Below are positions 1,020-46,505 of a stretch of DNA of 46,505 nt, piece by piece. The stretch's first letter is position 1, and every line of letters starts with the position of its first letter. Position numbers and translations under genes: made by a program. The notes below the pieces were generated by a model. The model was not told the DNA's origin and searched no databases. It saw nothing but the letters and a program-made list of their open reading frames with translations. The stretch lies in IMG/VR virus record IMGVR_UViG_2563366802_000006; one strand, given 5' to 3'. Source of the DNA: a virus (lineage: Duplodnaviria > Heunggongvirae > Uroviricota > Caudoviricetes).

Positions 1020-3600
<2,581 letters not shown>

Positions 3601-4256: not shown

Positions 4257-4448
4257 TCATACCTGGTCTCTCTCATCTGCTTCTGCTTTCGCCACCATCA
4301 TTTCCAGCTTTTGTGAAAGGGATGCGGCTAACGTATGAAATTCTTCGTCTGTTTCTACTGGTATTGGCACAAACCTGACTCCAATTTGAGCGAGGCTATG
4401 TGCCATCTCGATACTCGTTCTTAACTCAACGGGAGATGCTTTGTGCAT
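4257..4448 (-). CDS. Small early-region protein (lambda orf63-like)
   Basis: 63-aa ORF immediately beyond orf60a; synteny with lambda. Confidence 0.55.
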   Translation of the reverse strand: MHKASPVELRTSIEMAHSLAQIGVRFVPIPVETDEEFHTLAASLSQKLEMMVAKAEADERDQV

Positions 4449-4609
4449 ACAGCTCCCCGTTTATTATTTATCTCCTCAGCCAGCCGCTGTGCTTTCAGTG
4501 GATTTCTGATAACAGAAAGGCCGGGAAATACCCAGCCTCGCTTTGTAATGGAGTAGACGAAAGTGATCGCGCCTACCCGGATATTATCGTGAGGATGCGT
4601 CATCGCCAT
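4421..4609 (-). CDS. Lambda orf60a-like protein
   Basis: 62-aa [36 protein letters not shown]... overlapping the exo start, as lambda orf60a does. Confidence 0.7.
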
Positions 4610-5280
4610 TGCTCCCCAAATACAAAACCAATTTCAGCCAGTGCCTCGTCCATTTTTTCGATGAACTCCGGCACCATCTCGTCAAAACTCGCCATGTACT
4701 TTTCATCCCGCTCAACCACGACATAATGCAGTCCTTCACGCTTCATACGCGGGTCATAGTTGGCAAAGTACCAGGCATCTTTTCGTGTCACCCACATGCT
4801 GTACTGCACCTGGGCCATGTAAGCCGACTTTATGGCCTCGAAACCACCGAGCCGGAACTTCATGAAATCCCGGGAGGTAAACGGGCATTTCAGCTCAAGG
4901 CCATTGCCGTCACTGCATAAACCATCGGGAGAGCAGGCGGTGCGCATACTTTCGTCGCGATAGATGATCGGGGATTCAGTAACATTCACGCCGGAAGTGA
5001 ATTCAAACAGAGTTCTGGCGTCGTTCTCGTACTGTTTTCCCCATGCCAGCGCCTTAGCATTAACTTCCGGAGCCACACCGGTGCAAACCTCAGCCAGCAG
5101 GGTGTGGAAGTAGGACATTTTCATGTCAGGCCACTTCTTTCCTGAGCGGGGCTTGGCTATCACGTTGTGAGCTTCTGAAGCGGTGATGACGCCGAGCCGT
5201 AATTTGTGCCATGCATCATCCCCCTGTTCGACAGCTCTTACGTCGATCCCGGTACGCTGCAGTATAATGTCCGGTGTCAT
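4600..5280 (-). CDS. exo: Lambda exonuclease (Red-alpha)
   Basis: 226-aa ORF near-identical to lambda Exo ([36 protein letters not shown]...). Confidence 0.97.
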
Positions 5281-6062
5281 GCTGCCACCTTCTGCTCAGT
5301 GGCTTTCTGTTTCAGGAATCCAAGAGCTTTCACTGCTTCGGCCTGTGTCAGTTCTGACGATGCGCGAATGTCGCGGCGAAATATCTGGGAACAGAGCGGC
5401 AATAAGTCGTCATCCCATGTTTTATCCAGGGCGATCAGCAGAGTGTTAATCTCCTGCATGGTTTCATCGTTAACCGGAGTGATGTCGCGTTCCGGCTGAC
5501 GTTCTGCAGTGTATGCAGTATTTTCGACAATGCGCTCGGCTTCATCCTTGTCATAGATACCAGCAAATCCGAAGGCCAGACGGGCACACTGAATCATGGC
5601 TTTATGCCGTAACATCCGTTTGGGATGCGACTGCCACGGTCCGGTGATTTCTCTGCCTTCGCGGGTTTTGAATGGTTCGCGGCGGCATTCATCCATCCAC
5701 TCGGTAACGCAGATCGGATGATTACGGTCCTTGCGGTAAATCCGGCATGTACATGATTCATTGTCCTGCTCAAAGTCCATGCCATCAAACTGCTGGTTTT
5801 CATTGATGATACGGGACCAGCCATCAACGCCCACCACCGGAACGATGCCGTTCTGCTTGTCAGGGAAGGCGTAAATTTCTTTCGTCCACGGATTAAGGCC
5901 GTACTGGTTGGCGACGATCAACAATGCGATGAACTGCGCATCGCTGGCATCACCTTTAAATGCCGTCTGGCGAAGAGTGGTGATCAGTTCCTGTGGGTCG
6001 ACAGAATCCATGCCGACGCGTTCAGCCAGCTTCCCAGCCAGCGTTGCGAGTGCTGTACTCAT
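5277..6062 (-). CDS. bet: Lambda Bet single-strand annealing protein (Red-beta)
   Basis: 261-aa ORF near-identical to lambda Bet; overlaps exo start. Confidence 0.97.
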
Positions 6063-6787: not shown

Positions 6788-7165
6788 TCAGGCGGCTTTG
6801 ATAGTCATATCATCTGAATCAAATATTCCTGATGTATCGATATCGGTAATTCTTATTCCTTCGCTACCATCCATTGGAGGCCATCCTTCCTGACCATTTC
6901 CATCATTCCAGTCGAACTCACACACAACACCATATGCATTTAAGTCGCTTGAAATTGCTATAAGCAGAGCATGTTGCGCCAGCATGATTAATACAGCATT
7001 TAATACAGAGCCGTGTTTATTGAGTCGGTATTCAGAGTCTGACCAGAAATTATTAATCTGGTGAAGTTTTTCCTCTGTCATTACGTCATGGTCGATTTCA
7101 ATTTCTATTGATGCTTTCCAGTCGTAATCAATGGTAAGCGTAAACTGACCGCCGTATGTAGCCAT
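6788..7165 (-). CDS. ea10: Ea10-like protein
   Basis: 125-aa ORF in the position lambda ea10 occupies (next leftward of cIII); similar size. Confidence 0.7.
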   Translation of the reverse strand: MATYGGQFTLTIDYDWKASIEIEIDHDVMTEEKLHQINNFWSDSEYRLNKHGSVLNAVLIMLAQHALLIAISSDLNAYGVVCEFDWNDGNGQEGWPPMDGSEGIRITDIDTSGIFDSDDMTIKAA

Positions 7166-7218
7166 CAGACGAGAATTGGTAACTTAGACGCCCATCTGAT
7201 ATAGACGGACATCTAAGT

Positions 7219-7644
7219 ATGGAATTACAGGACTGGCGAAAAGAACCTCGTAAAAACTATTCGAATGAATTCAAACTTCGTATGGTGGAACTGGCATCAC
7301 AACCTGGAGCTTGTGTTGCACAGATTGCACGTGAAAATGGCGTCAATGATAATGTTATTTTCAAATGGCTCAGGCTCTGGCAGAACGAAGGGCGTGTTTC
7401 GCGGCGTCTTCCGGTAACGACCTCTTCTGACACTGGCGTTGAATTATTACCTGTAGAAATAACGCCGGATGAGCAGAAAGAACCTGTGGCGGCCATTGCG
7501 CCGTCTTTATCCACTTCCACTCAGACCAGAGTCAGTGCCAGTTCCTGCAAGGTGGAATTCCGTCACGGTAACATGACGCTGGAAAATCCATCGCCAGAGC
7601 TGCTCACAGTGTTGATCCGTGAACTGACCGGGAGGGGAAGATGA
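7219..7644 (+). CDS. IS66-family accessory protein TnpA (orf1)
   Basis: 141-aa ORF with HTH-like N-terminus; stop overlaps the next ORF. Confidence 0.8.
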   Translation: MELQDWRKEPRKNYSNEFKLRMVELASQPGACVAQIARENGVNDNVIFKWLRLWQNEGRVSRRLPVTTSSDTGVELLPVEITPDEQKEPVAAIAPSLSTSTQTRVSASSCKVEFRHGNMTLENPSPELLTVLIRELTGRGR

Positions 7645-7991
7645 TCTCACTCCCATCAGGTACCCGTATCTGGCTCGTTGCCGGCGTTACCGATATGCGT
7701 AAATCCTTCAACGGACTGGGAGAACAGGTACAACATGTGCTGAATGATAATCCCTTCTCCGGTCACCTGTTTATCTTCCGTGGCCGACGGGGTGACACCG
7801 TCAAAATTCTTTGGGCTGATGCTGATGGTCTGTGCCTGTTCACCAAACGCCTGGAGGAAGGCCAGTTTATCTGGCCTGCGGTACGTGACGGCAAGGTATC
7901 CATTACCCGCTCGCAACTGGCAATGCTCCTCGATAAGCTGGACTGGCGTCAGCCAAAAACATCCAGCCTTAACGCACTGACAATGTTGTAA
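7641..7991 (+). CDS. IS66-family TnpB (orf2)
   Basis: 116-aa ORF MISLPSGTRIWLVAGVTDMRKSFNGL... typical of IS66 orf2. Confidence 0.85.
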   Translation: MISLPSGTRIWLVAGVTDMRKSFNGLGEQVQHVLNDNPFSGHLFIFRGRRGDTVKILWADADGLCLFTKRLEEGQFIWPAVRDGKVSITRSQLAMLLDKLDWRQPKTSSLNALTML

Positions 7992-8021
7992 AAAACTCCT
8001 GACCGCATTATAAAAACGGTC

Positions 8022-9635
8022 ATGAGTCAGAAATACCTCATTCGCATCGCAGAGCTGGAAAGGTTGCTCTCTGAGCAGGCTGAAGCCCTCCGTCAGAAAG
8101 ACCAGCAACTGAGTCTGGTTGAAGAGACGGAAGCCTTCCTGCGCTCTGCACTGACACGTGCCGAAGAAAAGATCGAAGAAGATGAACGGGAAATAGAACA
8201 TCTGCGGGCTCAGATAGAAAAACTGCGCCGGATGCTGTTCGGTACCCGTTCTGAAAAACTGCGTCGTGAAGTTGAACTGGCTGAGGCTCTGCTGAAACAA
8301 CGTGAACAGGACAGCGATCGTTACAGTGGGCGGGAAGACGATCCTCAGGTTCCCCGCCAGTTGCGACAGTCGCGCCATCGTCGTCCGTTACCGGCACACC
8401 TTCCCCGTGAAATACACCGCCTGGAGCCAGAAGAAAGCTGTTGCCCGGAGTGTGGCGGTGAGCTGGATTATCTGGGGGAAGTCAGCGCTGAACAGCTGGA
8501 ACTGGTGAGCAGTGCCCTGAAAGTGATCCGCACAGAACGGGTAAAAAAAGCCTGTACAAAATGTGACTGTATTGTTGAAGCACCGGCGCCGTCCCGCCCG
8601 ATAGAGCGTGGTATCGCGGGCCCCGGATTACTTGCCCGCGTGTTAACGGGAAAATACTGCGAACATCTGCCACTGTATCGTCAGAGTGAAATCTTTGCCC
8701 GCCAGGGTGTCGAACTGAGCCGGGCCTTACTCTCCAACTGGGTTGACGCGTGCTGCCAGTTAATGACACCGGTGAATGATGCCCTGTACCGTTATGTAAT
8801 GAACACCCGCAAGATTCACACTGATGACACACCGGTAAAGGTACTGGCACCGGGTCAGAAAAAGGCGAAAACAGGGCGTATCTGGACGTATGTCCGGGAT
8901 GATCGCAATGTGGGTTCGTCATCTCCTCCAGCGGTCTGGTTCGCGTACTCGCCGAACCGGCAGGGGAAACACCCGGAGCAACACCTCCGCCCCTTCCGGG
9001 GTATCCTGCAGGCGGATGCGTTCACAGGTTACGACAGGTTGTTCAGTGCAGAACGTGAAGGTGGTGCACTGACAGAAGTTGCGTGCTGGGCCCATGCCCG
9101 GCGAAAAATCCACGATGTATACATCAGCAGCAAAAGTGCGACGGCAGAAGAAGCACTGAAGCGAATCAGTGAACTGTACGCCATCGAGGATGAAATACGG
9201 GGATTACCGGAGTCAGAGCGTCTTGCCGTCAGGCAGCAGCGAAGCAAAGTGTTACTGACGTCGCTGCATGAATGGATGGTGGAGAAGAATGGTACGCTGT
9301 CGAAAAAATCCAGACTGGGCGAAGCGTTCAGCTATGTACTGAATCAGTGGGATGCCCTCTGTTATTACAGTGATGACGGTCTGGCGGAGGCGGATAATAA
9401 TGCTGCGGAAAGAGCGCTTCGTGCAGTCTGTCTCGGAAAGAAAAACTTTATGTTCTTTGGCAGCGATCACGGCGGCGAGCGTGGAGCACTGTTGTACGGG
9501 CTGATCGGCACCTGCCGTCTGAACGGTATCGATCCGGAAGCGTATCTGCGCCATATCCTGAGCGTACTGCCGGAATGGCCTTCCAACCGAGTTGATGAAC
9601 TCCTGCCATGGAACGTAGTACTCACCAATAAATAA
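8022..9635 (+). CDS. IS66-family transposase TnpC (orf3)
   Basis: 537-aa ORF with N-terminal coiled coil, zinc-finger CPECGGEL...CTKC and a DDE-type core. Confidence 0.88.
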   Translation: MSQKYLIRIAELERLLSEQAEALRQKDQQLSLVEETEAFLRSALTRAEEKIEEDEREIEHLRAQIEKLRRMLFGTRSEKLRREVELAEALLKQREQDSDRYSGREDDPQVPRQLRQSRHRRPLPAHLPREIHRLEPEESCCPECGGELDYLGEVSAEQLELVSSALKVIRTERVKKACTKCDCIVEAPAPSRPIERGIAGPGLLARVLTGKYCEHLPLYRQSEIFARQGVELSRALLSNWVDACCQLMTPVNDALYRYVMNTRKIHTDDTPVKVLAPGQKKAKTGRIWTYVRDDRNVGSSSPPAVWFAYSPNRQGKHPEQHLRPFRGILQADAFTGYDRLFSAEREGGALTEVACWAHARRKIHDVYISSKSATAEEALKRISELYAIEDEIRGLPESERLAVRQQRSKVLLTSLHEWMVEKNGTLSKKSRLGEAFSYVLNQWDALCYYSDDGLAEADNNAAERALRAVCLGKKNFMFFGSDHGGERGALLYGLIGTCRLNGIDPEAYLRHILSVLPEWPSNRVDELLPWNVVLTNK

Positions 9636-9714
9636 GCGTCAATACGGTGCTCCGTTGACGCTTACAATCAATGATGTATTTTTTGATGTTTGACATCTAT
9701 TCATATCCTCACAG

Positions 9715-17281: not shown

Positions 17282-18364
17282 TTAGAACTGGTAAACCAGA
17301 CCTACAGCAACGATGTCATCAGTATCAATACCAGCTGTTTTGGTAAACTTACTATCGTCAATTAAGTTGATTTTGTAATCAACAAAAGTGGACATGTTTT
17401 TATTAAAGTAGTAAGTAGCACCGACATCGACATACTTGACTAAGTCTCGGTCACCATGAACACCAAGGTCTTTACCTTTTGACTGAAGGTAAGCAACAGA
17501 TGGGCGCAGACCGAAGTCAAACTGATATTGTGCTACTGCTTCAAAGTTTTGTGCTTTGTTTGCAATATGGTTATTACCAAAAACGGTCATATTCTGAGTT
17601 TCAGAATATGTGGTAGCCAGATAGATATTGTTCGCATCATATTTCAGGCCTGCAGCCCATACTTCCGCATTTTTGCCGGAGGCATTGAATTTGCTCTTAC
17701 CATAGGCGACCTGACCGTCAGTGCGATCTGATTTAGCATAGGTTGCACCCACGCCGAATCCTTCATACTCATAAGTAGTGGAGAAACCGAAACCATCACC
17801 ATTGGCTTCAGTTACGTCAGTGCGGTCATTTTTACCCTGATACTGAGCAGCAAAGTTCAGGCCATCGACCAGACCAAAGAAGTCGTTGTTACGATAAGTT
17901 GCAACACCAGTAGTGCGACCAGTCATGAACACATCTGTTTGGGTCCAGGTATCACCACCGAATTCTGGCAGGACGTCAGTCCACGCACCGATGTCGTATG
18001 CTACACCGTAGTTACGGCCGTAATCGATTGAGCCGTAATCACCAAATTTCAGGCCTGCAAATGCAAGACGGGTTTTGTCTTTGGAAGAACCTTGAGATTC
18101 AGCGCGGTTGCCTTTGAATTCATATTCCCACTGACCGAAACCAGTCAGTTGATCGTTGATTTGGGTTTCACCTTTGAAGCCAAGACGGGCATAAGTAGTA
18201 TCACCATCATCTGCATCATTAGAGGAGAAGTAGTGCTTAGCATTAACTTTCCCGTACAGATCCAGCTTGTTACTGTCTTTATTATAAATTTCAGCTGCCT
18301 GAGCAGACATCGCCATCAGTACTGATGCAGCTACAGCAGAAATTGCCACTGTTAATTTTTTCAT
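17282..18364 (-). CDS. nmpC: Outer-membrane porin, OmpC/OmpF/PhoE family (NmpC-like), apparently intact
   Basis: 360-aa ORF with signal peptide [23 protein letters not shown] and C-terminal ...VAVGLVYQF; located between Q and the holin as in DLP12. Confidence 0.93.
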
Positions 18365-21039: not shown

Positions 21040-21528
21040 ATGAACCAATTAGAAGAAAAGCTTCAAAGAATGATTTCCTTATACAAGGAAGATAACTGCC
21101 AAAAAGTTCCTGAAAACATCGCAGAGTTAATGGAATTGGCAAGTGAATTTTCTGGCATGCTTAAGTCGTCAGGTGTTCGGTCAGCGTTCTTTGTTGAAAT
21201 GCTGATGCACGGCGGACTTATGGCAACAATGAGACGTGTAATGGAAGACCAGAGAAAAGAACCTCCTCAGGTATACGTTTTGTCATCGAAGAAAACTGGG
21301 CTAACCAAAATTGGGTATTCATCCAACATTCCACAACGCATCAAATCGCTTGGCAACTCTGGACCAGACTGCTTGAAGCTTGAGTGCCTGATCCCTGGTG
21401 GAAGAGAAACTGAAAACATGCTTCATCGCAAATTTGCCGCAAAGAGAAAGCACGGTGAATGGTTCGCCCTGTCCAAGGATGACATTGAGGGATTGAAATC
21501 TGTAGCGATTACTTCTGATGGCTATTAA
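21040..21528 (+). CDS. T5orf172 / GIY-YIG-like domain protein (moron)
   Basis: Start chosen at ATG 21040 (MNQLEEKL...); C-terminal half has the T5orf172-type pattern VYVLSSKKTGLTKIGYSSNIPQRIKSL...HGEWFALS. Confidence 0.6.
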   Translation: MNQLEEKLQRMISLYKEDNCQKVPENIAELMELASEFSGMLKSSGVRSAFFVEMLMHGGLMATMRRVMEDQRKEPPQVYVLSSKKTGLTKIGYSSNIPQRIKSLGNSGPDCLKLECLIPGGRETENMLHRKFAAKRKHGEWFALSKDDIEGLKSVAITSDGY

Positions 21529-23842: not shown

Positions 23843-27523
<3,681 letters not shown>

Positions 27524-27543
<20 letters not shown>

Positions 27544-28842
27544 TCTCCCGCATATTGCCAGTATGGCCTTTAATGAGCCGCTGATGCTTGAACCCGCCTA
27601 TGCGCGGGTTTTCTTTTGTGCGCTTGCAGGCCAGCTTGGGATCAGCCGCCTGACGGATGCGGTGTCCGGCGACAGCCTGACTGCCGGAGAGGCACCCGCG
27701 GCGCTGGCGTTATCCGTTGATGATGACGGACCACGACAGGCCCGCAGTTATCAGGTCATGAACGGCATCGCCGTGCTGCCGGTGTCCGGCACGCTGGTCA
27801 GCCGGACGCGGGCGCTGCAGCCGTATTCGGGGATGACCGGTTACAACGGCATTATCGCCGTCTGCAACAGGCTGCCAGCGATCCGATGGTGGACGGCATT
27901 CTGCTGGATATGGACACACCGGGCGGGATGGTGGCGGGAGCATTTGACTGTGCTGACATCATCGCCCGTGTGCGAGACATAAAACCGGTATGGGCGCTGG
28001 CCAACGACATGAACTGCAGTGCAGGTCAGCTGCTTGCCAGCGCCGCCTCCCGGCGTCTGGTCACGCAGACCGCCCGGACAGGCTCCATCGGCGTCATGAT
28101 GGCTCACAGTAATTACGGTGCTGCGCTGGAGAAACAGGGCGTGGAAATCACGCTGATTTACAGCGGCAGCCATAAGGTGGATGGCAACCCCTACAGCCAT
28201 CTACCGGATGATGTCCGGGAAACACTGCAGTCCCGGATGGATGCAACCCGCCGGATGTTTGCACAGAAGGTGTCGGCATATACCGGCCTGTCCGTGCAGG
28301 CTGTGCTGGATACCGAGGCTGCAGTGTACAGCGGTCAGGAGGCCATTGATGCCGGACTGGCTGATGAACTTGTGAACAGTACCGATGCGATCACCGTCAT
28401 GCGTGATGCACTGGATGCACGTAAATCCCGTCTCTCAGGAGGGCGAATGACCAAAGAGACTCAATCAACAACTGTTTCAGCCACTGCTTCGCAGGCTGAC
28501 GTTACTGGCGTGGTGCAAGCGACGGAGGGCGAGAACGCCAGCGCTGCGCAGCCGGACGTGAACGCGCAGATCACCGCAGCGGTTGCGGCAGAAAACAGTC
28601 GCATTATGGGGATCCTCAACTGTGAGGAGGCTCACGGACGCGAAGAACAGGCATGCGTGCTGGCCGAAACCCCCGGTATGACCGTGGAAACGGCCCGCCG
28701 TATTCTGGCCGCAGCACCACAGAGTGCACAGGCGCGCAGTGACACTGCGCTGGATCGTCTGATGCAGGGGGCACCGGCACCGCTGGCTGCAGGTAACCCG
28801 GCATCTGATGCCGTTAACGATTTGCTGAACACACCAGTGTAA
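27524..28842 (+). pseudogene. C: Head protease/scaffold C, disrupted by a 1-bp deletion in a C-run near 27857-27860
   Basis: N-terminal part reads in one frame to a stop at 27982 and the C-terminal part continues in another frame from 27886; lambda has ATCGCCCGTCTG where this sequence has ATCGCCGTCTG. Confidence 0.75.
28255..28842 (+). CDS. nu3: Scaffolding protein Nu3 (nested in the C-terminal frame of C); start approximate
   Basis: C-terminal frame of C is intact; the internal start was not determined precisely. Confidence 0.4.
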   Translation: MFAQKVSAYTGLSVQAVLDTEAAVYSGQEAIDAGLADELVNSTDAITVMRDALDARKSRLSGGRMTKETQSTTVSATASQADVTGVVQATEGENASAAQPDVNAQITAAVAAENSRIMGILNCEEAHGREEQACVLAETPGMTVETARRILAAAPQSAQARSDTALDRLMQGAPAPLAAGNPASDAVNDLLNTPV

Positions 28843-28851
28843 GGGATGTTT

Positions 28852-29184
28852 ATGACGAGCAAAGAAACCTTTACCCATTACCAGCCGCTGGGCAACAGTG
28901 ACCCGGCTCATACCGCAACCGCGCCCGGCGGGTTGAGTGCGAAAGCGCCTGCAATGACCCCGCTGATGCTGGACACCTCCACCCGTAAGCTGGTTGCGTG
29001 GGATGGCACCACCGACGGTGCTGCCGTTGGCATTCTTGCAGTTGCTGCTGACCAGACCAGCACCACACTGACGTTCTACAAGTCCGGCACGTTCCGTTAT
29101 GAGGATGTGCTCTGGCCGGAGGCTGCCAGCGACGAGACGAAAAAACGGACCGCGTTTGCCGGAACGGCAATCAGCATCGTTTAA
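28852..29184 (+). CDS. D: Capsid decoration protein D
   Basis: [27 protein letters not shown]... matches lambda gpD. Confidence 0.96.
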
Positions 29185-29204
29185 CCTGACCCTTCATCAC
29201 TAAA

Positions 29205-29227
29205 GGCCGCCTGTGCGGCTTTTTTTA
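29205..29227 (+). terminator. Stem-loop with T-run between D and E
   Basis: GCCGCCTGTGCGGC followed by TTTTTTT. Confidence 0.5.
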
Positions 29228-29239
29228 CGGGATTTTTTT

Positions 29240-30265
29240 ATGTCGATGTACACAACCGCCCAGCTGCTGGCGGCAAATGAGCAGAAATTTAAGTTTGATC
29301 CGCTGTTTCTGCGTCTCTTTTTCCGTGAGAGCTATCCCTTCACCACGGAGAAAGTCTATCTCTCACAAATTCCTGGACTGGTAAACATGGCGCTGTACGT
29401 TTCGCCAATTGTTTCCGGTGAGGTTATCCGTTCCCGTGGCGGCTCCACCTCTGAATTTACGCCGGGATATGTCAAGCCGAAGCATGAAGTGAATCCGCAG
29501 ATGACCCTGCGTCGCCTGCCGGATGAAGATCCGCAGAATCTGGCTGACCCGGCTTACCGCCGCCGTCGCATCATCATGCAGAACATGCGTGACGAAGAGC
29601 TGGCCATTGCTCAGGTCGAAGAGATGCAGGCCGTTTCTGCCGTGCTCAAGGGCAAATACACCATGACCGGTGAAGCCTTCGATCCGGTTGAAGTGGATAT
29701 GGGCCGCAGTGCGGCGAACAACATCACACAGTCCGGCGGCACGGAGTGGAGCAAGCGTGACAAGTCCACGTATGACCCGACCGACGATATCGAAGCCTAC
29801 GCGCTGAACGCCAGCGGTGTGGTGAATATCATCGTGTTCGATCCGAAAGGCTGGGCGCTGTTCCGTTCCTTCAAAGCCGTCAAGGAGAAGCTGGATACCC
29901 GTCGTGGCTCTCATTCCGAGCTGGAGACAGCGGTGAAAGACCTGGGTAAAGCGGTGTCCTATAAGGGGATGTATGGCGATGTGGCCATCGTCGTGTATTC
30001 CGGACAGTACGTGGAAAACGGCGTCAAAAAGAACTTCCTGCCGGACAACACGATGGTGCTGGGGAACACTCAGGCACGCGGTCTGCGCACCTATGGCTGC
30101 ATTCAGGATGCGGACGCACAGCGCGAAGGCATTAACGCCTCTGCCCGTTACCCGAAAAACTGGGTGACCACCGGCGATCCGGCGCGAGAGTTCACCATGA
30201 TTCAGTCAGCACCGCTGATGCTGCTGGCTGATCCTGATGAGTTCGTGTCCGTTCAACTGGCGTAA
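29240..30265 (+). CDS. E: Major capsid protein E
   Basis: Start at ATG 29240 (MSMYTTAQLLAANEQKF...); matches lambda gpE. Confidence 0.97.
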   Translation: MSMYTTAQLLAANEQKFKFDPLFLRLFFRESYPFTTEKVYLSQIPGLVNMALYVSPIVSGEVIRSRGGSTSEFTPGYVKPKHEVNPQMTLRRLPDEDPQNLADPAYRRRRIIMQNMRDEELAIAQVEEMQAVSAVLKGKYTMTGEAFDPVEVDMGRSAANNITQSGGTEWSKRDKSTYDPTDDIEAYALNASGVVNIIVFDPKGWALFRSFKAVKEKLDTRRGSHSELETAVKDLGKAVSYKGMYGDVAIVVYSGQYVENGVKKNFLPDNTMVLGNTQARGLRTYGCIQDADAQREGINASARYPKNWVTTGDPAREFTMIQSAPLMLLADPDEFVSVQLA

Positions 30266-32812: not shown

Positions 32813-33235
32813 ATGTTCCTGAAAACCGAATCATTTGAACATAACGGTGTGACCGTCACGCTTTCTGAACTGTCAGCCCTGCAGCGTATTGAGCATCTCG
32901 CCCTGATGAAACGGCAGGCAGAACAGGCGGAGTCAGACAGCAACCGGAAGTTTACTGTGGAAGACGCCATCAGAACCGGCGCGTTTCTGGTGGCGATGTC
33001 CCTGTGGCATAACCATCCGAAGAAGACAAAGCTGCCTTCCATGAATGAAGCCGTTAAACAGATTGAGCAGGAAGTGCTTACCACCTGGCCCACGGAGGCA
33101 ATTTCTCATGCTGAAAACGTGGTGTACCGGCTGTCCGGTATGTATGAGTTTGTTGTGAATGATGCCCCTGAACAGGCAGATGACGCCGGGCCAGCAGAGC
33201 CTGTTTCTGCGGGAAAGTGTTCGACGGTGAGCTGA
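32813..33235 (+). CDS. G: Tail assembly chaperone G
   Basis: 140-aa ORF matching lambda gpG. Confidence 0.95.
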   Translation: MFLKTESFEHNGVTVTLSELSALQRIEHLALMKRQAEQAESDSNRKFTVEDAIRTGAFLVAMSLWHNHPKKTKLPSMNEAVKQIEQEVLTTWPTEAISHAENVVYRLSGMYEFVVNDAPEQADDAGPAEPVSAGKCSTVS

Positions 33236-36549: not shown

Positions 36550-37247
36550 TGCAGGATATCCGGCAGGAAACGCTGAATGAATGCACCCGTGCGGAGCAGT
36601 CGGCCAGCGTGGTGCTCTGGGAAATCGACCTGACAGAGGTCGGTGGAGAACGTTATTTTTTCTGTAATGAGCAGAACGAAAAAGGTGAGCCGGTCACCTG
36701 GCAGGGGCGACAGTATCAGCCGTATCCCATTCAGGGGAGCGGTTTTGAACTGAATGGCAAAGGCACCAGTACGCGCCCCACGCTGACGGTTTCTAACCTG
36801 TACGGTATGGTCACCGGGATGGCGGAAGATATGCAGAGTCTGGTCGGCGGAACGGTGGTCCGGCGTAAGGTTTACGCCCGTTTTCTGGATGCGGTGAACT
36901 TCGTCAACGGAAACAGTTACGCCGATCCGGAGCAGGAGGTGATCAGCCGCTGGCGCATTGAGCAGTGCAGCGAACTGAGCGCGGTGAGTGCCTCCTTTGT
37001 ACTGTCCACGCCGACGGAAACGGATGGCGCTGTTTTTCCGGGACGTATCATGCTGGCCAACACCTGCACCTGGACCTATCGCGGTGACGAGTGCGGTTAT
37101 AGCGGTCCGGCTGTCGCGGATGAATATGACCAGCCAACGTCCGATATCACGAAGGATAAATGCAGCAAATGCCTGAGCGGTTGTAAGTTCCGCAATAACG
37201 TCGGCAACTTTGGCGGCTTCCTTTCCATTAACAAACTTTCGCAGTAA
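36549..37247 (+). CDS. L: Tail tip protein L
   Basis: 232-aa ORF matching lambda gpL. Confidence 0.95.
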   Translation: MQDIRQETLNECTRAEQSASVVLWEIDLTEVGGERYFFCNEQNEKGEPVTWQGRQYQPYPIQGSGFELNGKGTSTRPTLTVSNLYGMVTGMAEDMQSLVGGTVVRRKVYARFLDAVNFVNGNSYADPEQEVISRWRIEQCSELSAVSASFVLSTPTETDGAVFPGRIMLANTCTWTYRGDECGYSGPAVADEYDQPTSDITKDKCSKCLSGCKFRNNVGNFGGFLSINKLSQ

Positions 37248-37252
37248 ATCCC

Positions 37253-37996
37253 ATGACACAGACAGAATCAGCGATTCTGGCGCACGCCCGGCGATGTGCG
37301 CCAGCGGAGTCGTGCGGCTTCGTGGTAAGCACGCCGGAGGGGGAAAGATATTTTCCCTGCGTGAATATCTCCGGTGAGCCGGAGGCGTATTTCCGTATGT
37401 CGCCGGAAGACTGGCTGCAGGCAGAAATGCAGGGTGAGATTGTGGCGCTGGTCCACAGCCACCCCGGTGGTCTGCCCTGGCTGAGTGAGGCCGACCGGCG
37501 GCTGCAGGTGCAGAGTGATTTGCCGTGGTGGCTGGTCTGCCGGGGGACGATTCATAAGTTCCGCTGTGTGCCGCATCTCACCGGGCGGCGCTTTGAGCAC
37601 GGTGTGACGGACTGTTACACACTGTTCCGGGATGCTTATCATCTGGCGGGGATTGAGATGCCGGACTTTTATCGTGAGGATGACTGGTGGCGTAACGGCC
37701 AGAATCTCTATCTGGATAATCTGGAGGCGACGGGGCTGTATCAGGTGCCGTTGTCAGCGGCACAGCCGGGCGATGTGCTGCTGTGCTGTTTTGGTTCATC
37801 AGTGCCGAATCACGCCGCAATTTACTGCGGCGACGGCGAGCTGCTGCACCATATTCCTGAACAACTGAGCAAACGAGAGAGGTACACCGACAAATGGCAG
37901 CGACGCACACACTCCCTCTGGCGTCACCGGGCATGGCGCGCATCTGCCTTTACGGGGATTTACAACGATTTGGTCGCCGCATCGACCTTCGTGTGA
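37253..37996 (+). CDS. K: Tail tip assembly protein K
   Basis: 247-aa ORF matching lambda gpK. Confidence 0.95.
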   Translation: MTQTESAILAHARRCAPAESCGFVVSTPEGERYFPCVNISGEPEAYFRMSPEDWLQAEMQGEIVALVHSHPGGLPWLSEADRRLQVQSDLPWWLVCRGTIHKFRCVPHLTGRRFEHGVTDCYTLFRDAYHLAGIEMPDFYREDDWWRNGQNLYLDNLEATGLYQVPLSAAQPGDVLLCCFGSSVPNHAAIYCGDGELLHHIPEQLSKRERYTDKWQRRTHSLWRHRAWRASAFTGIYNDLVAASTFV

Positions 37997-42830: not shown

Positions 42831-45209
42831 GTGGATATGGCAGCAGTAAAAATCTCAGGTGTGCTGAAAGATGGTGCGGGAAAACCAATACAGAACTGCA
42901 CTATTCAACTGAAGGCAAAGCGTAACAGCACCACGGTACTGGTGAACACGGTGGCCTCTGAAAATCCGGATGAAGCCGGGCGTTACAGCATGGATGTTGA
43001 GTATGGCCAGTACAGCGTCATCCTGCTGGTTGAAGGTTTTCCGCCTTCACATGCCGGGACCATTACCGTCTATGAAGGTTCCAGACCAGGTACGCTGAAT
43101 GATTTTCTTGGTGCCATGACGGAGGATGATGCCCGTCCGGAGGCACTGCGCCGTTTTGAACTGATGGTGGAAGAAGCAGCACGCAACGCTGAAGCCGCCT
43201 CTCAGAGCGCAGCGGCGGCAAAGAAATCCGAAACTGCAGCGGCATCATCGAAGAACGCGGCGAAAACCTCAGAAACGAATGCAGCTAATAGTGCACAGGC
43301 GGCAGCGACCTCACAGACTGCATCAGCAAACTCCGCGACAGCAGCCAAAAAATCAGAAACCAACGCGAAAAACAGCGAGACAGCCGCAAAGACGAGCGAA
43401 ACCAACGCAAAGTCCAGCCAGACGGCAGCGAAAACCAGCGAAACGAATGCCAAAGCCAGTGAAACTGCGGCAAAAAACAGCCAGGTTGCAGCAGCCCAAA
43501 GCGAGAGCGCGGCAGCCGGTTCTGCGACTTCAGCAGCTGGATCAGCAACTGCTGCGGCTAACAGCCAGAAAGCTGCGAAGACGAGTGAAACTAACGCAAA
43601 GTCCAGCCAGACGGCAGCGAAGACCAGCGAAACGAATGCCAAAGCCAGCGAAACTGCGGCGAAAAACAGCCAGGATGCAGCAGCCCAAAGCGAGAGTGCC
43701 GCAGCTGGTTCTGCAAGTGCGGCGGCTTCTTCTGCCACTGCATCAGCCAACAGTCAAAAAGCAGCAAAAACCAGTGAAACCAACACAAAGGCGAGCGAGA
43801 CTGCGGCGACTAACTCGGCGAAAGCATCCGCTGCAAGCCAGATGGCTGCAAAAGCAAGTGAAGACGCAGCCAGAGAGTATGCAAGCCAGGCAGCAGAGCC
43901 GTATAAATATGTCTTACAGCCACTGCCTGATGTGTGGATACCGTTTAATGACTCGATGGATATGATTACAGGATTTGGCCCGGGATATAAAAAAATAACA
44001 GTGCGCGATGATGTGGTCACTATACCATCCGACAAAATTGTCCCGTTTTCCCGCGCGAGTTCCGCGACCTATATCAATAAGTCCGGCGCTCTTACCATTG
44101 CAGAAATTAATGAGCCACGTTTTGAAAAAGAAGGGCTGTTAATTGAAGGGCAGAGAACAAATTACTTCACAAACTCAAACGCTCCGGAATTGTGGAATAA
44201 AAATCCAGGCCTGAAGATAAGCGAGACAAAAACCGATTCCAGGGGTTTTAAATATGCAACGTTTACCCCAGAAAAATATTTAGATAGTTCTGGCTCATAT
44301 GGAATTATATCAGGGGCAGCAGCAAATAAGATAGCGGTAGTCAAAAATGATGCAGTTACAATATCCTTTAGAGCAAAAGGGGATAATGTAAGATTTGCGG
44401 CTAGATTTGATAAAGGGGATTCGCCAGTTGCTGTAGCTGCCATTTTTATTGATAGCGCCACACTAGATACATTCACGTCTGGAGCAGATGCGTCTAATAT
44501 TGCTGTGAAAAATGTTGTTCGTGACGGTGAGTGGGTTGCTGTAGAGGCTGTTTATAAAGTAACAGACGACTCTACATATATTAACGGCGCCATTCTGATG
44601 TCAAACAAACTGGGTGCTAATTTTGATAAGACTAGTTTTATGGATGTAACCACCCCTCAAATAGAGCTAGGTTCTTGCTTATCATCATTTATTGTCACAC
44701 CAGGTGTTCCTGCGACAAGGGCGAGTGATATGGTTATTTTTTCAACCAGAAATAACATAAGTTCTGTCCCTTTAAGCTGTCTTGTTGAAATACATAAAAA
44801 TTGGGACTCTACGCCAAATCAGGCCCCACGAATTTTAACCACTATTGGCGTGGCGACTAATGATGAACAACTGGTATTGGCTTTCAGGACGCCTACAAGT
44901 CCGGATGTAGAACCTTTACCTTATGTTCAGTTTGGAGTGAGATCTGCATATCTTAGTCCATCTGTGAAGGCCGGGCGCAAAATGATTGCTGGTTTTGTCT
45001 GTAATAGCTCGACTGAATTTCGTTGCTGTTGTAATGGTTACCTGTCACCTGTTCAGACTTCGTCATGGAAGAATACCGGAGCTGCACATGAAATACGTAT
45101 TGGGGGAACTTCTGCTGGAGGAGAACGTCACTTGTTTGGTCACGTTCGTAACCTGAGAATATGGCATAAAGAATTAACTGATGCGCAAATGGGGGAGAGT
45201 ATTAAATGA
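42831..45209 (+). CDS. stf: Side tail fibre: lambda Stf-like N-terminus, Ala/Ser/Thr-rich repeat shaft, divergent low-GC C-terminal module
   Basis: N-terminus (AVKISGVLKDGAGKPIQNCTIQLKAKRNSTTVLVNTV...) matches lambda Stf; the C-terminal roughly 430 aa are AT-rich, unlike lambda Stf, and end in a ConA/LamG-like pattern. Confidence 0.85.
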   Translation: MDMAAVKISGVLKDGAGKPIQNCTIQLKAKRNSTTVLVNTVASENPDEAGRYSMDVEYGQYSVILLVEGFPPSHAGTITVYEGSRPGTLNDFLGAMTEDDARPEALRRFELMVEEAARNAEAASQSAAAAKKSETAAASSKNAAKTSETNAANSAQAAATSQTASANSATAAKKSETNAKNSETAAKTSETNAKSSQTAAKTSETNAKASETAAKNSQVAAAQSESAAAGSATSAAGSATAAANSQKAAKTSETNAKSSQTAAKTSETNAKASETAAKNSQDAAAQSESAAAGSASAAASSATASANSQKAAKTSETNTKASETAATNSAKASAASQMAAKASEDAAREYASQAAEPYKYVLQPLPDVWIPFNDSMDMITGFGPGYKKITVRDDVVTIPSDKIVPFSRASSATYINKSGALTIAEINEPRFEKEGLLIEGQRTNYFTNSNAPELWNKNPGLKISETKTDSRGFKYATFTPEKYLDSSGSYGIISGAAANKIAVVKNDAVTISFRAKGDNVRFAARFDKGDSPVAVAAIFIDSATLDTFTSGADASNIAVKNVVRDGEWVAVEAVYKVTDDSTYINGAILMSNKLGANFDKTSFMDVTTPQIELGSCLSSFIVTPGVPATRASDMVIFSTRNNISSVPLSCLVEIHKNWDSTPNQAPRILTTIGVATNDEQLVLAFRTPTSPDVEPLPYVQFGVRSAYLSPSVKAGRKMIAGFVCNSSTEFRCCCNGYLSPVQTSSWKNTGAAHEIRIGGTSAGGERHLFGHVRNLRIWHKELTDAQMGESIK
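43380..43755. repeat. Tandem direct repeat inside stf, unit 189 bp (63 codons), two near-identical copies
   Basis: GACGAGCGAAACCAACGCAAAGTCCAGCCAGACGGCAGCGAAAACCAGCGAAACGAATGCCAAAGCCAG... at 43391 recurs at 43580 with a few substitutions; encoded AAKTSETNAKSSQTAAKTSETNAKASETAAKNSQ repeats. Confidence 0.85.
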
Positions 45210-45487
45210 AAGATTTAACACTCAAATTTGCAGACAGGGCCGACTTTTCGGCCTTTATGGAGAGCATTGGCTATTATGATGACGAGTTGATGCAGGATGA
45301 TATTCTTATTGACGTGATAGGTAACGTGTACAAAGAAACCGGAGAACTGACTGAAGATGGCGAACCGGTATGTGTTAAGGAAGACGGATATTTTGTAAAC
45401 GTGCGCATCATTAATGATGCAAAAAAATCGTCAATATTCGATGAATACGCGGTTGTTGTTGAACATCAACTTCGTGGCTGGATGTGA
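45206..45487 (+). CDS. Hypothetical small acidic protein (93 aa), coupled to the stf stop
   Basis: ATG overlaps the stf stop (ATGA); low GC; no similarity to lambda Tfa. Confidence 0.5.
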   Translation: MKDLTLKFADRADFSAFMESIGYYDDELMQDDILIDVIGNVYKETGELTEDGEPVCVKEDGYFVNVRIINDAKKSSIFDEYAVVVEHQLRGWM

Positions 45488-45496
45488 GGGAGACAA

Positions 45497-46201
45497 ATGG
45501 CTACATCGACAGTAATTCCGGGAGACATCACCACGCTGAAGGGAGATGTCAGTAAAGCGAAGGAAGATATTTCCTCAATTAACAGTAAAGTATCAACGCT
45601 TCAGACTGATATGACCAGTGCAAAGCAGGATATCAGCTCCAGATACACAAAAACTGAAGTTGATAATAAGCTGAAAAACAAAGTGGAAGTGAACGATCTG
45701 GAAAGTGGTCGTTATGGCGGAGATTTTTATCCACTGACAGGTCGTGAAGCGTTTTATTTATGGAATTTGGCCACGACTACAGCGGCGGCAAACCTTTATC
45801 TTAATCCTGACCCTGCAATTTCGTCTGTACTGCGGTCAACATCGTCTATCCGCTATAAGCATTCAGTAGAGACGATAGATTCAGAGCACGCCGATCTCAT
45901 TTTCAGGATGCGCCCTGTATGGTACAGGTCACAATGCGAAAATGACAGGCGTGACTGGGGATTCTACGGATTGATTGCCGAGGAAGTAGGAGAAATTGCC
46001 CCTCAGTTTGTACACTGGCGATCAGCTAACGAAGATGATGCACGGGAAGCTATTTCCAGCAATGGCCTTGTTGCCGAAGGTGTAATGTACGAACGTCTGG
46101 TTGTTCCACTGATTCACCATATCCAGAAACTGACCGAAAGAGTTGATGAACTTGAGTCAGAATTGAAGTTGTTATCAACTTCCCGAAGCGATATCGGATA
46201 A
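45497..46201 (+). CDS. Hypothetical protein with C-terminal Peptidase_S74-like intramolecular chaperone domain and N-terminal coiled coil
   Basis: C-terminal pattern SSIRYKHSVETI...WGFYGLIAEEVGEIAPQFV...YERLVVPLIHHIQKLTERVDELESEL fits the endosialidase/tail-fibre chaperone domain consensus; N-terminal heptad-like region. Confidence 0.55.
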   Translation: MATSTVIPGDITTLKGDVSKAKEDISSINSKVSTLQTDMTSAKQDISSRYTKTEVDNKLKNKVEVNDLESGRYGGDFYPLTGREAFYLWNLATTTAAANLYLNPDPAISSVLRSTSSIRYKHSVETIDSEHADLIFRMRPVWYRSQCENDRRDWGFYGLIAEEVGEIAPQFVHWRSANEDDAREAISSNGLVAEGVMYERLVVPLIHHIQKLTERVDELESELKLLSTSRSDIG

Positions 46202-46211
46202 AGGAGGAGTA

Positions 46212-46505
46212 ATGGATATAACACCTTTTCTTCATGCGCTTTGTGCTGTGGCTGCGCAGGTACTGATTGGTCTTTTTACCGGAAACTGGGTTTACGGGGC
46301 GATAGCCGGTTGTACGTTCTTCATTGCGCGTGAACACACCCAGGCAGAATATCGCTGGATTGAAATGTTCGGGCATGGCAAGCGAATGAATATGCCGTGG
46401 TGGGGCGGTTTTGATCCGCGCGCATGGGATGTGGCAAGCCTGATGGATTTTGCTGTGCCGGTGGTGGCGTGTCTGCTGGTCTGGCTGTTGGTTAATCGTG
46501 GGTGA
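46212..46505 (+). CDS. Hypothetical small membrane protein (97 aa, 2-3 predicted transmembrane segments)
   Basis: Hydrophobic stretches LHALCAVAAQVLIGLFTGNWVYGAIAGCTFFIA and LMDFAVPVVACLLVWLLV; ribosome-binding site AGGAGG upstream; stop at 46503-46505. Confidence 0.5.
   Translation: MDITPFLHALCAVAAQVLIGLFTGNWVYGAIAGCTFFIAREHTQAEYRWIEMFGHGKRMNMPWWGGFDPRAWDVASLMDFAVPVVACLLVWLLVNRG

What the first reader, a model, noticed from the sequence alone, without database searches (positions are those of the whole stretch)
27524..28842. Head protease/scaffold gene C carries a 1-bp deletion in a homopolymer
C is otherwise near-lambda, but ATCGCCCGTCTG is ATCGCCGTCTG here (around 27857-27860), shifting the frame after GYNGIIA and separating the N-terminal part from the C-terminal/Nu3 part. 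If real, capsid maturation should fail and the prophage is defective; it could equally be a sequencing or assembly error in a C-run.
Basis: seen in the sequence. Interest (0 to 1): 0.5.

Follow-up and report, generated by a model that had tools for sequence, protein, structure and literature searches.

The report
Real frameshift in prophage head protease
The lambda-type head protease gene C of this E. coli prophage really has lost one C, a mutation seen in over a hundred independent assemblies of the same decaying prophage and already flagged "frameshifted" in RefSeq, so it is ordinary prophage decay.

Summary
At window 27858-27859 the run CCC found in relatives is CC. The C reading frame (GTG 27524) shifts after Ala112 and stops at 27982. 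The rest of C, with the S49 catalytic Ser166 and Lys218 and the nested scaffold gene Nu3, stays open in the old frame to 28842.

It is not a sequencing error. The exact 152-aa frameshift product occurs on 121 contigs (243 index blocks) from NCBI, ENA gut metagenomes and Logan read-set assemblies. Five fetched contigs and the complete genome of E. coli 3359 carry the same 2-C allele, and they differ from the window by SNPs and IS positions.

The allele is confined to one prophage lineage, at the tRNA-Arg (DLP12-type) site:
- 1 of 3042 complete E. coli records has it
- 0 of 77 phage records have it
- 0 IMG/VR contigs have it

PGAP already labels the 3359 gene "S49 family peptidase, frameshifted". 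No slippery heptamer or long homopolymer is present, so recoding is unlikely.

The prophage has other damage: IS100 truncating an excisionase-like gene, and an ISEc23 insertion. A sister copy (strain ET210) has lost the whole late module.

Verdict: a real, inherited pseudogenising mutation. Interest is low.

The parts
27524..27982 (+). 5' fragment of head protease gene C. It starts at GTG, overlapping the end of portal gene B, and has 112 native codons followed by 40 out-of-frame codons and TAA. The product is 152 aa.
   Evidence: ORF list. Alignment to lambda C and to the intact allele. The exact 152-aa product is protein P0016, present in public collections. It has no Pfam hit.
27858..27859 (+). 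Site of the mutation: a CC run where homologues have CCC (GCC CGT becomes GCC GT), after codon Ala112.
   Evidence: The allele is unique among 3042 complete E. coli records and absent from 77 phage records.
27886..28842 (+). 3' part of C in the original frame: 318 codons from Met122. It holds the Peptidase_S49 domain, the Ser166 codon (28018-28020, AGT) and the Lys218 codon (28174-28176, AAG). It lacks its normal start; gene callers start it at Met122 or Met136.
   Evidence: Pfam PF01343 E=4e-44 on this ORF. The alignment to B. subtilis SppA (3RST) covers residues 81-298 of the intact protein. Residue numbering. A 304-aa call is seen in other contigs.
28237..28842 (+). Nested scaffold gene Nu3, in frame with the 3' end of C and intact. 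The coordinates correspond to nu3 as annotated in NC_001416 (5132-5737). A second candidate start is ATG 28448, preceded by GGAGGG.
   Evidence: Lambda annotation, coordinate transfer from the alignment, and the sequence itself.
25942..27543 (+). Portal gene B, intact; it overlaps the start of C by 20 nt.
28852..30265 (+). Head decoration gene D (28852-29184) and major capsid gene E (29240-30265), both intact.
1297..3256 (+). IS100 (IS21 family) insertion between int and the early-left genes. The ends are approximate.
   Evidence: istA/istB annotation in the 100%-identical stretch of strain 3359. Left inverted repeat found at 1297.
3249..3350 (-). 34-codon remnant of an excisionase-type HTH gene, cut off by IS100.
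   Evidence: PGAP: 'helix-turn-helix domain-containing protein, incomplete, missing C-terminus'. Pfam HTH_17, E=5e-8, covering profile positions 2-27 of 51.
7134..9665 (+). ISEc23 (IS66 family) insertion with an 8-bp target duplication AATCAATG, in the 5' end of the DUF2528 gene of the early-left operon. It is absent at this site in strain 3359.

Best explanation
This is a genuine, vertically inherited 1-bp deletion (CCC to CC) in gene C, the lambda-type S49 head-maturation protease. The gene belongs to a lambdoid prophage that, in the nearly identical copy in strain 3359, sits next to tRNA-Arg at the DLP12-type site. Translation from the normal GTG start gives a 152-aa product. That product ends 32 residues into the SppA-like catalytic fold and lacks Ser166 and Lys218, so no active protease is made from the normal start. 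This loss of activity is inferred. Nu3, D, E and every other head and tail gene checked remain intact. Without gpC, procapsids should not mature (inferred from lambda genetics). The prophage was probably already immobile, because its excisionase-like gene is truncated by IS100. The frameshift is therefore one step in the ordinary decay of a resident prophage, not a regulatory device and not an artefact.
For: The deletion is seen directly and is the only difference from an intact allele.

The window is not the strain 3359 record. Across about 33 kb of aligned early-right and late sequence it differs by 7 SNPs, and by the positions of ISEc23 and IS1 and an IS5 truncation. Both share the deletion.

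The exact frameshift product P0016 is on 121 contigs / 243 blocks, with sources NCBI (for example EOW17982.1, E. coli KTE103), ENA and Logan. L004-L008 all contain the 2-C allele and differ from the window at 4 to 53 sites. One further metagenome contig has it.

The allele is absent elsewhere: 1 of 3042 complete E. coli records, 0 of 77 phage records, 0 IMG/VR contigs against at least 120 with the intact spacing.

PGAP marks the 3359 copy as a 'frameshifted' pseudogene.

The break lies inside the catalytic fold. The SppA alignment spans residues 81-298, the catalytic residues are Ser166 and Lys218, and the break follows residue 112.

The 256-nt overlap of the two frames has no X XXY YYZ heptamer and no run of 5 or more identical bases. 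The real G/GT slippery site GGGAAAG is present at 33211.

Other lesions are the IS100 insertion with the xis-like remnant and the ISEc23 insertion with its target duplication. Strain ET210 carries the same prophage with the same IS100 lesion, but the whole stretch from lysozyme to tail fibre is deleted beside an IS3.

C is essential in lambda (PMC10695390 Table 1; PMC3224144 for the roles of C, Nu3 and B).
Against: No reads were inspected, and no induction or particle data exist. Apart from C, the 18 head and tail genes checked have no internal stops. The late module therefore looks unusually well preserved for a dead prophage, which could mean the mutation is recent or that some selection acts on the module. 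A C-terminal fragment starting at Met122 or Met136 would retain Ser166 and Lys218, so residual activity is not formally excluded. Which came first, the IS100 insertion or the frameshift, is not resolved, because ET210 lacks the C region.
Confidence: 0.92

Rival explanations
1. Sequencing or assembly error in a short C run: the true genome has CCC and an intact C gene.
For: The site is a (very short) homopolymer. Only one complete RefSeq genome shows the allele.
Against: The same allele appears in assemblies from unrelated projects and methods: NCBI isolate genomes including KTE103, ENA metagenome assemblies from different samples, a Logan assembly of run ERR9385492, and the complete genome of strain 3359. 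Together these are 121 contigs / 243 blocks, and they differ from each other at other sites. More than 3000 other assemblies read CCC at this site, so the context is not error-prone.
Confidence: 0.01
2. The gene is still functional. Either a -1 ribosomal slip at ATC GCC G restores full-length gpC at a low level, or the N- and C-terminal fragments work as a split protease.
For: Re-reading one base after GCC would give CGT CTG, exactly the wild-type sequence (read from the sequence). By my own recollection, not checked here, only a few gpC copies per procapsid are needed. The C-terminal ORF keeps the S49 domain, Ser166 and Lys218.
Against: The frame overlap has no slippery heptamer and no homopolymer of 5 or more bases. 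The arrangement is not conserved: 0 of 77 phages and 1 of 3042 complete genomes. The break removes the first strand and helix region of the SppA-like fold, which spans residues 81-298. No Shine-Dalgarno-like sequence is evident before ATG 27886.
Confidence: 0.03
3. The inactivation is selected, that is, domestication. Knocking out head maturation stops virion production while the host keeps lysis, tail or other prophage functions.
For: The allele persists in many samples while the rest of the late module stays free of stops. Tails assemble independently of heads in lambda (PMC3224144, Figure 5 legend).
Against: Divergence among carriers is tiny: 4 to 11 differences per 15-20 kb in three contigs, and patchy clusters in the other two. 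Intactness is therefore explained by the mutation being young. Sister copies lose parts freely: an IS5 truncation in 3359 and deletion of the whole late module in ET210. There are no functional data.
Confidence: 0.04

Closest known systems
Bacteriophage lambda gene C / Nu3 (head maturation protease, Peptidase S49, with nested scaffold)
   Same: Same position (B-C/Nu3-D-E) and the same GTG start overlapping B. Nucleotide identity is about 97%, and the repaired protein differs from lambda gpC at 11 residues. The S49 domain, Ser166, Lys218 and the nested Nu3 frame are all present.
   Different: One C is missing after codon 112, so the 439-codon frame is broken.
M5T33_RS07135 of E. coli strain 3359 (NZ_CP103739.1), annotated 'S49 family peptidase, frameshifted' (pseudogene)
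   Same: The 1319-nt sequence is 100% identical, including the deletion. It is the same prophage, and in 3359 it lies next to tRNA-Arg.
   Different: The host isolate or assembly is different. Strain 3359 has IS1 in the porin gene, ISEc23 next to essD instead of in the early-left operon, and an IS5 truncating the right end. There are also 7 SNPs.
Defective lambdoid prophages of E. coli (DLP12-type cryptic prophages)
   Same: By my own recollection of K-12, not tested here, DLP12 occupies the same tRNA-Arg site between fimZ and appY/ompT. The PGAP gene names in the 3359 copy are DLP12-style (intD, quuD, essD, nohD). The prophage is decaying by IS insertions, point frameshifts and deletions.
   Different: This copy still has a complete-looking head and tail module. 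By my own recollection, K-12 DLP12 has lost that module.
Programmed -1 frameshift of tail chaperone genes G/GT
   Same: Two overlapping frames within one phage morphogenesis gene.
   Different: G/GT has the slippery heptamer GGGAAAG, which is present here at 33211. The C site has no slippery sequence, and its frame arrangement is not conserved among homologues.

Membership tests
Lambda gpC-type head protease (Peptidase S49 / SppA-like) | Peptidase_S49 domain | tested here: met
   PF01343 scores E=7e-44 on the intact allele and E=4e-44 on the window's 3' ORF. SppA structures 3RST and 4KWB match at E about 1e-21.
Lambda gpC-type head protease (Peptidase S49 / SppA-like) | Catalytic Ser and Lys codons in place | tested here: met
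   Ser166 (CSAG, 28018-28020) and Lys218 (GSHK, 28174-28176) are present in the 3' frame. The motifs CSAG and GSHK align with the SppA segments AASGG and SGAHA. That these are the catalytic residues rests on my own knowledge of S49 peptidases.
Lambda gpC-type head protease (Peptidase S49 / SppA-like) | One uninterrupted frame of about 439 codons from the start overlapping B | tested here: not met
   The frame shifts after codon 112 and stops at 27982. The locus is therefore a pseudogene of this family, not a functional member.
Lambda gpC-type head protease (Peptidase S49 / SppA-like) | Synteny portal - C/Nu3 - D - E with a nested in-frame scaffold gene | tested here: met
Programmed ribosomal frameshift / recoding site | Slippery heptamer or long homopolymer in the overlap of the two frames | tested here: not met
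   None found in 27727-27982.
Programmed ribosomal frameshift / recoding site | Two-frame arrangement conserved among homologues | tested here: not met
   1 of 3042 complete E. coli records, 0 of 77 phages and 0 IMG/VR contigs have it.
Programmed ribosomal frameshift / recoding site | Downstream stimulatory RNA structure | not tested
   No folding was done, because the first two criteria failed.
Sequencing artefact | Allele confined to a single assembly or technology | tested here: not met
   121 contigs / 243 blocks from NCBI, ENA and Logan. Six fetched sequences carrying the allele differ from one another at other sites.
Defective (cryptic) prophage | Inactivating lesions in functions needed for excision or virion production | tested here: met
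   The C frameshift, the xis-like remnant next to IS100 and the ISEc23 insertion with target duplication.
Defective (cryptic) prophage | No infectious particles on induction | not testable with these tools
   This needs induction, plaque assays and electron microscopy.

The most novel reading that the evidence does not exclude
The protease-dead allele is kept because it benefits the host. The lineage would keep an otherwise stop-free 25-kb lysis, head and tail module that can no longer make infectious heads, but could still make lambda-type tails (an F-type tailocin-like product) or immature procapsids. Alternatively, rare -1 slippage at GCC-G might supply the few gpC copies a procapsid needs.
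Probability: 0.04. Interest if true: 0.45.

Novelty: already known. Interest (0 to 1): 0.08.

Why it matters
It matters little beyond annotation. The result settles that this is a real pseudogene and not an assembly error. The prophage should therefore be scored as defective, and it carries several lesions, not just this one. The 2-C allele is a convenient clonal marker for one E. coli prophage lineage that turns up in human blood isolates and in ENA metagenome assemblies. Together with strains 3359 and ET210, it gives a small worked example of stepwise prophage decay: an IS insertion, then a point frameshift, then loss of a whole module.

Tried and rejected
- I first assumed the window was the strain 3359 record. 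A direct comparison showed 9283 mismatches at a fixed offset. BLAST then showed the same prophage with different IS positions, which turned 3359 into independent evidence.
P0020 has the same frameshift tail on a more lambda-like N-terminus. Because its shifted tail is identical to the window's, I read it as a recombinant or chimeric assembly upstream of the deletion, not a recurrence. This was not verified.
I replaced it with a pattern allowing 0 or 1 extra base.
- Medina et al. 2010 (gpC is the viral protease, PMID 20620152) is not held. It is cited only through PMC3224144 and PMC10695390.
- I tried to link strain 3359 to a publication and sequencing method. No link was found, so I make no claim about its technology.
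- I did not attempt dN/dS on the carriers. There are too few scattered SNPs, and the clusters in L/K look like recombination or metagenome chimeras.
- I did not determine the sequence type of the carrier strains.

Full report
**Observation**

The window reads ...GGCATTATCGCCGTCTGCAAC... at 27848-27868. Lambda (NC_001416, C = 4418-5737) and the closest intact E. coli allele (NZ_CP062908) read ...ATCGCCCGTCTG... there. The missing base is alignment column 335 of the gene.

Against NZ_CP062908 this is the only difference in 1320 nt. Against lambda there are 37 substitutions plus the deletion.

The ORF list shows the consequence. The frame that starts at GTG 27524, overlapping the end of portal gene B as in lambda, runs through 112 native codons (...GYNGIIA). 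It then reads 40 foreign codons and stops at 27982. The original frame is open from 27727, with a first ATG at 27886 (Met122), and continues to the normal stop at 28842.

**What the gene is**

The intact allele is a 439-aa Peptidase_S49 protein (PF01343, E=7e-44, residues 150-297). It aligns with the solved SppA structures 3RST and 4KWB over residues 81-298. The motifs CSAG (Ser166) and GSHK (Lys218) align with the SppA segments AASGG and SGAHA. That these are the catalytic residues rests on my own knowledge of S49 peptidases.

The break after residue 112 is therefore inside the catalytic fold, 32 residues from its beginning. The 152-aa product lacks both catalytic residues and has no Pfam hit.

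Nu3 is the scaffold gene nested in frame in the 3' part of C. It is annotated at 5132-5737 in lambda, which corresponds to window 28237-28842. It lies downstream of the break and is intact.

In lambda, the C protease, the Nu3 scaffold and the B portal form the initiator of head assembly (PMC3224144). C scores as essential there, with EOP <2e-7 on CRISPRi knock-down (PMC10695390, Table 1).

**Error or mutation**

The window is not identical to any complete RefSeq E. coli genome. Its nearest relative is strain 3359 (NZ_CP103739.1, a blood isolate from Houston). That strain carries the same prophage with:
- a 100% identical C region, including the deletion
- ISEc23 at a different place
- an extra IS1 in the porin gene
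- an IS5 truncating the right end
- 7 SNPs across about 33 kb of aligned early-right and late sequence

The two are therefore independent sequences that share the allele.

The exact 152-aa frameshift product (P0016) is present in the 15-billion-protein collection on 121 contigs. Its sources are NCBI, ENA and Logan, and its accessions include EOW17982.1 from E. coli KTE103. The position index lists it in 243 blocks.

Five fetched contigs all contain the 2-C allele in the same gene context. Four are ENA assemblies (three named METAG scaffolds plus ERZ27264788), all from different samples, and one is the Logan assembly of run ERR9385492. They differ from the window at 4 to 53 sites. One more metagenome contig carries the allele.

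More than 3000 other E. coli assemblies carry the longer, intact-spacing version of this same 80-nt context, so the context is not error-prone. The error hypothesis can be set aside, although no reads were inspected.

**Distribution**

An 80-nt probe finds the 2-C form in 1 of 3042 complete E. coli records. It finds it in 0 of 77 phage records. IMG/VR has 0 contigs with the 2-C form and at least 120 with the intact spacing.

Over the 24-kb late region, strain 3359 is about 100% identical to the window and the next complete genome is 97.5%. The allele therefore marks one closely related prophage lineage.

Strain 3359 has only one C homologue detectable by megablast, so no second copy is available to complement it.

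**Recoding?**

The 256-nt stretch where both frames are open (27727-27982) has no X XXY YYZ heptamer and no run of five or more identical bases. The genuine programmed frameshift of this phage type, GGGAAAG in G/GT, is present at 33211.

The two-frame arrangement in C is not conserved in any phage. A programmed frameshift is therefore very unlikely.

A C-terminal fragment started at Met122 or Met136 would keep Ser166 and Lys218. It would lack the first strand and helix region of the fold. I see no Shine-Dalgarno-like sequence before 27886. I infer that the fragment is inactive, but this is untested.

**Context: a decaying prophage**

In strain 3359 the prophage lies next to tRNA-Arg, between fimZ and appY/ompT. 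PGAP gives it DLP12-style gene names (intD, quuD, essD, nohD).

In the window and in 3359, an IS100 sits just beyond int. It cuts an HTH_17 (excisionase-type) gene down to 34 codons.

The window also has ISEc23, with an 8-bp target duplication (AATCAATG), in the 5' end of the DUF2528 gene of the early-left operon.

Strain ET210 has the same prophage, with the same IS100 lesion and many of the same protein accessions. There, everything from the lysozyme gene to the tail fibre is replaced by an IS3.

By contrast, nu1, A, W, B, D, E, FI, FII, Z, U, V, G, H, M, L, K, I and J have no internal stops in the window. All but J are identical to their 3359 counterparts.

The simplest reading is a resident prophage that could probably no longer excise and is accumulating lesions, with the C frameshift as one of them. 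Divergence between the window and 3359 is about 2e-4 per site. Using typical E. coli clock rates from my own knowledge, this suggests an age on the order of a century. That is a rough inference only.

**Comparison with what is known, and novelty**

The gene is a pseudogene of lambda C. PGAP already annotates the identical sequence in strain 3359 as 'S49 family peptidase, frameshifted'. The KTE103 record lists the truncated ORF as 'minor capsid protein C'. Frameshifts of this kind in resident prophages are commonplace, and nothing here is mechanistically new.

**Verdict**

The frameshift and the probable loss of head maturation stand. The idea that it could equally be a sequencing error does not. 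The prophage is also defective for more reasons than this one. Interest is low (0.08).

A small residual possibility, about 4%, is that the protease-dead state is maintained by selection or bypassed by rare slippage. Either would be moderately interesting, and no evidence here supports it.

Noticed in passing
window 7134-9665; L001 6819-7585 and 8689-11220: ISEc23 (IS66 family) sits in different places in the window (early-left operon, target duplication AATCAATG) and in strain 3359 (between the porin gene and essD). Strain 3359 also has an IS1 in the porin gene, which is intact in the window (17282-18364, minus strand). This shows recent IS movement within one prophage lineage.
   Followed up: partly
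L131 (E. coli ET210, NZ_CP100987.1) 26690-29945: ET210 carries the same prophage with the same IS100/xis lesion. The whole stretch from the lysozyme gene to the tail fibre is missing next to an IS3 element, a later stage of decay of the same element.
   Followed up: partly
protein P0020 (Logan, one 1323-bp contig): It has the same 40-residue frameshift tail as the window, joined to a more lambda-like N-terminal segment (SLTAQEALATLALSGDDD). It is probably a recombinant or an assembly chimera.
   Followed up: no
window 43371-43809 (inside ORF 42831-45209): The tail-fibre N-terminal gene contains diverged direct repeats (about 84% identity, 189-nt offset) encoding alanine/serine-rich ...TSETNAK... 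units.
   Followed up: no
window 21040-21528: A T5orf172/MUG113 (GIY-YIG-like nuclease family) gene lies between the lysis genes and nu1. It may be a mobile nuclease cargo gene.
   Followed up: no
window 45384-46505 versus L001 37861 onwards: The window keeps a right-end segment: a 234-aa protein with a Peptidase_S74 chaperone domain and a 97-aa ORF (PGAP: hypothetical protein in ET210; my reading of the sequence: hydrophobic). In strain 3359 an IS5 has cut this segment off at window position 45383. ET210 retains the segment.
   Followed up: partly
L008 position corresponding to window 19942; L004/L005 corresponding to window 37085-37835: One metagenome contig has an extra A in the lysozyme gene rrrQ. 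Two contigs have dense SNP clusters in tail genes L and K. These could be recombination with other lambdoid prophages or metagenome assembly chimeras.
   Followed up: no
L003 2856-3833 (strain 3359, outside the window): The fimH-like adhesin gene of the sfm operon, next to the prophage, is annotated with an internal stop in strain 3359.
   Followed up: no
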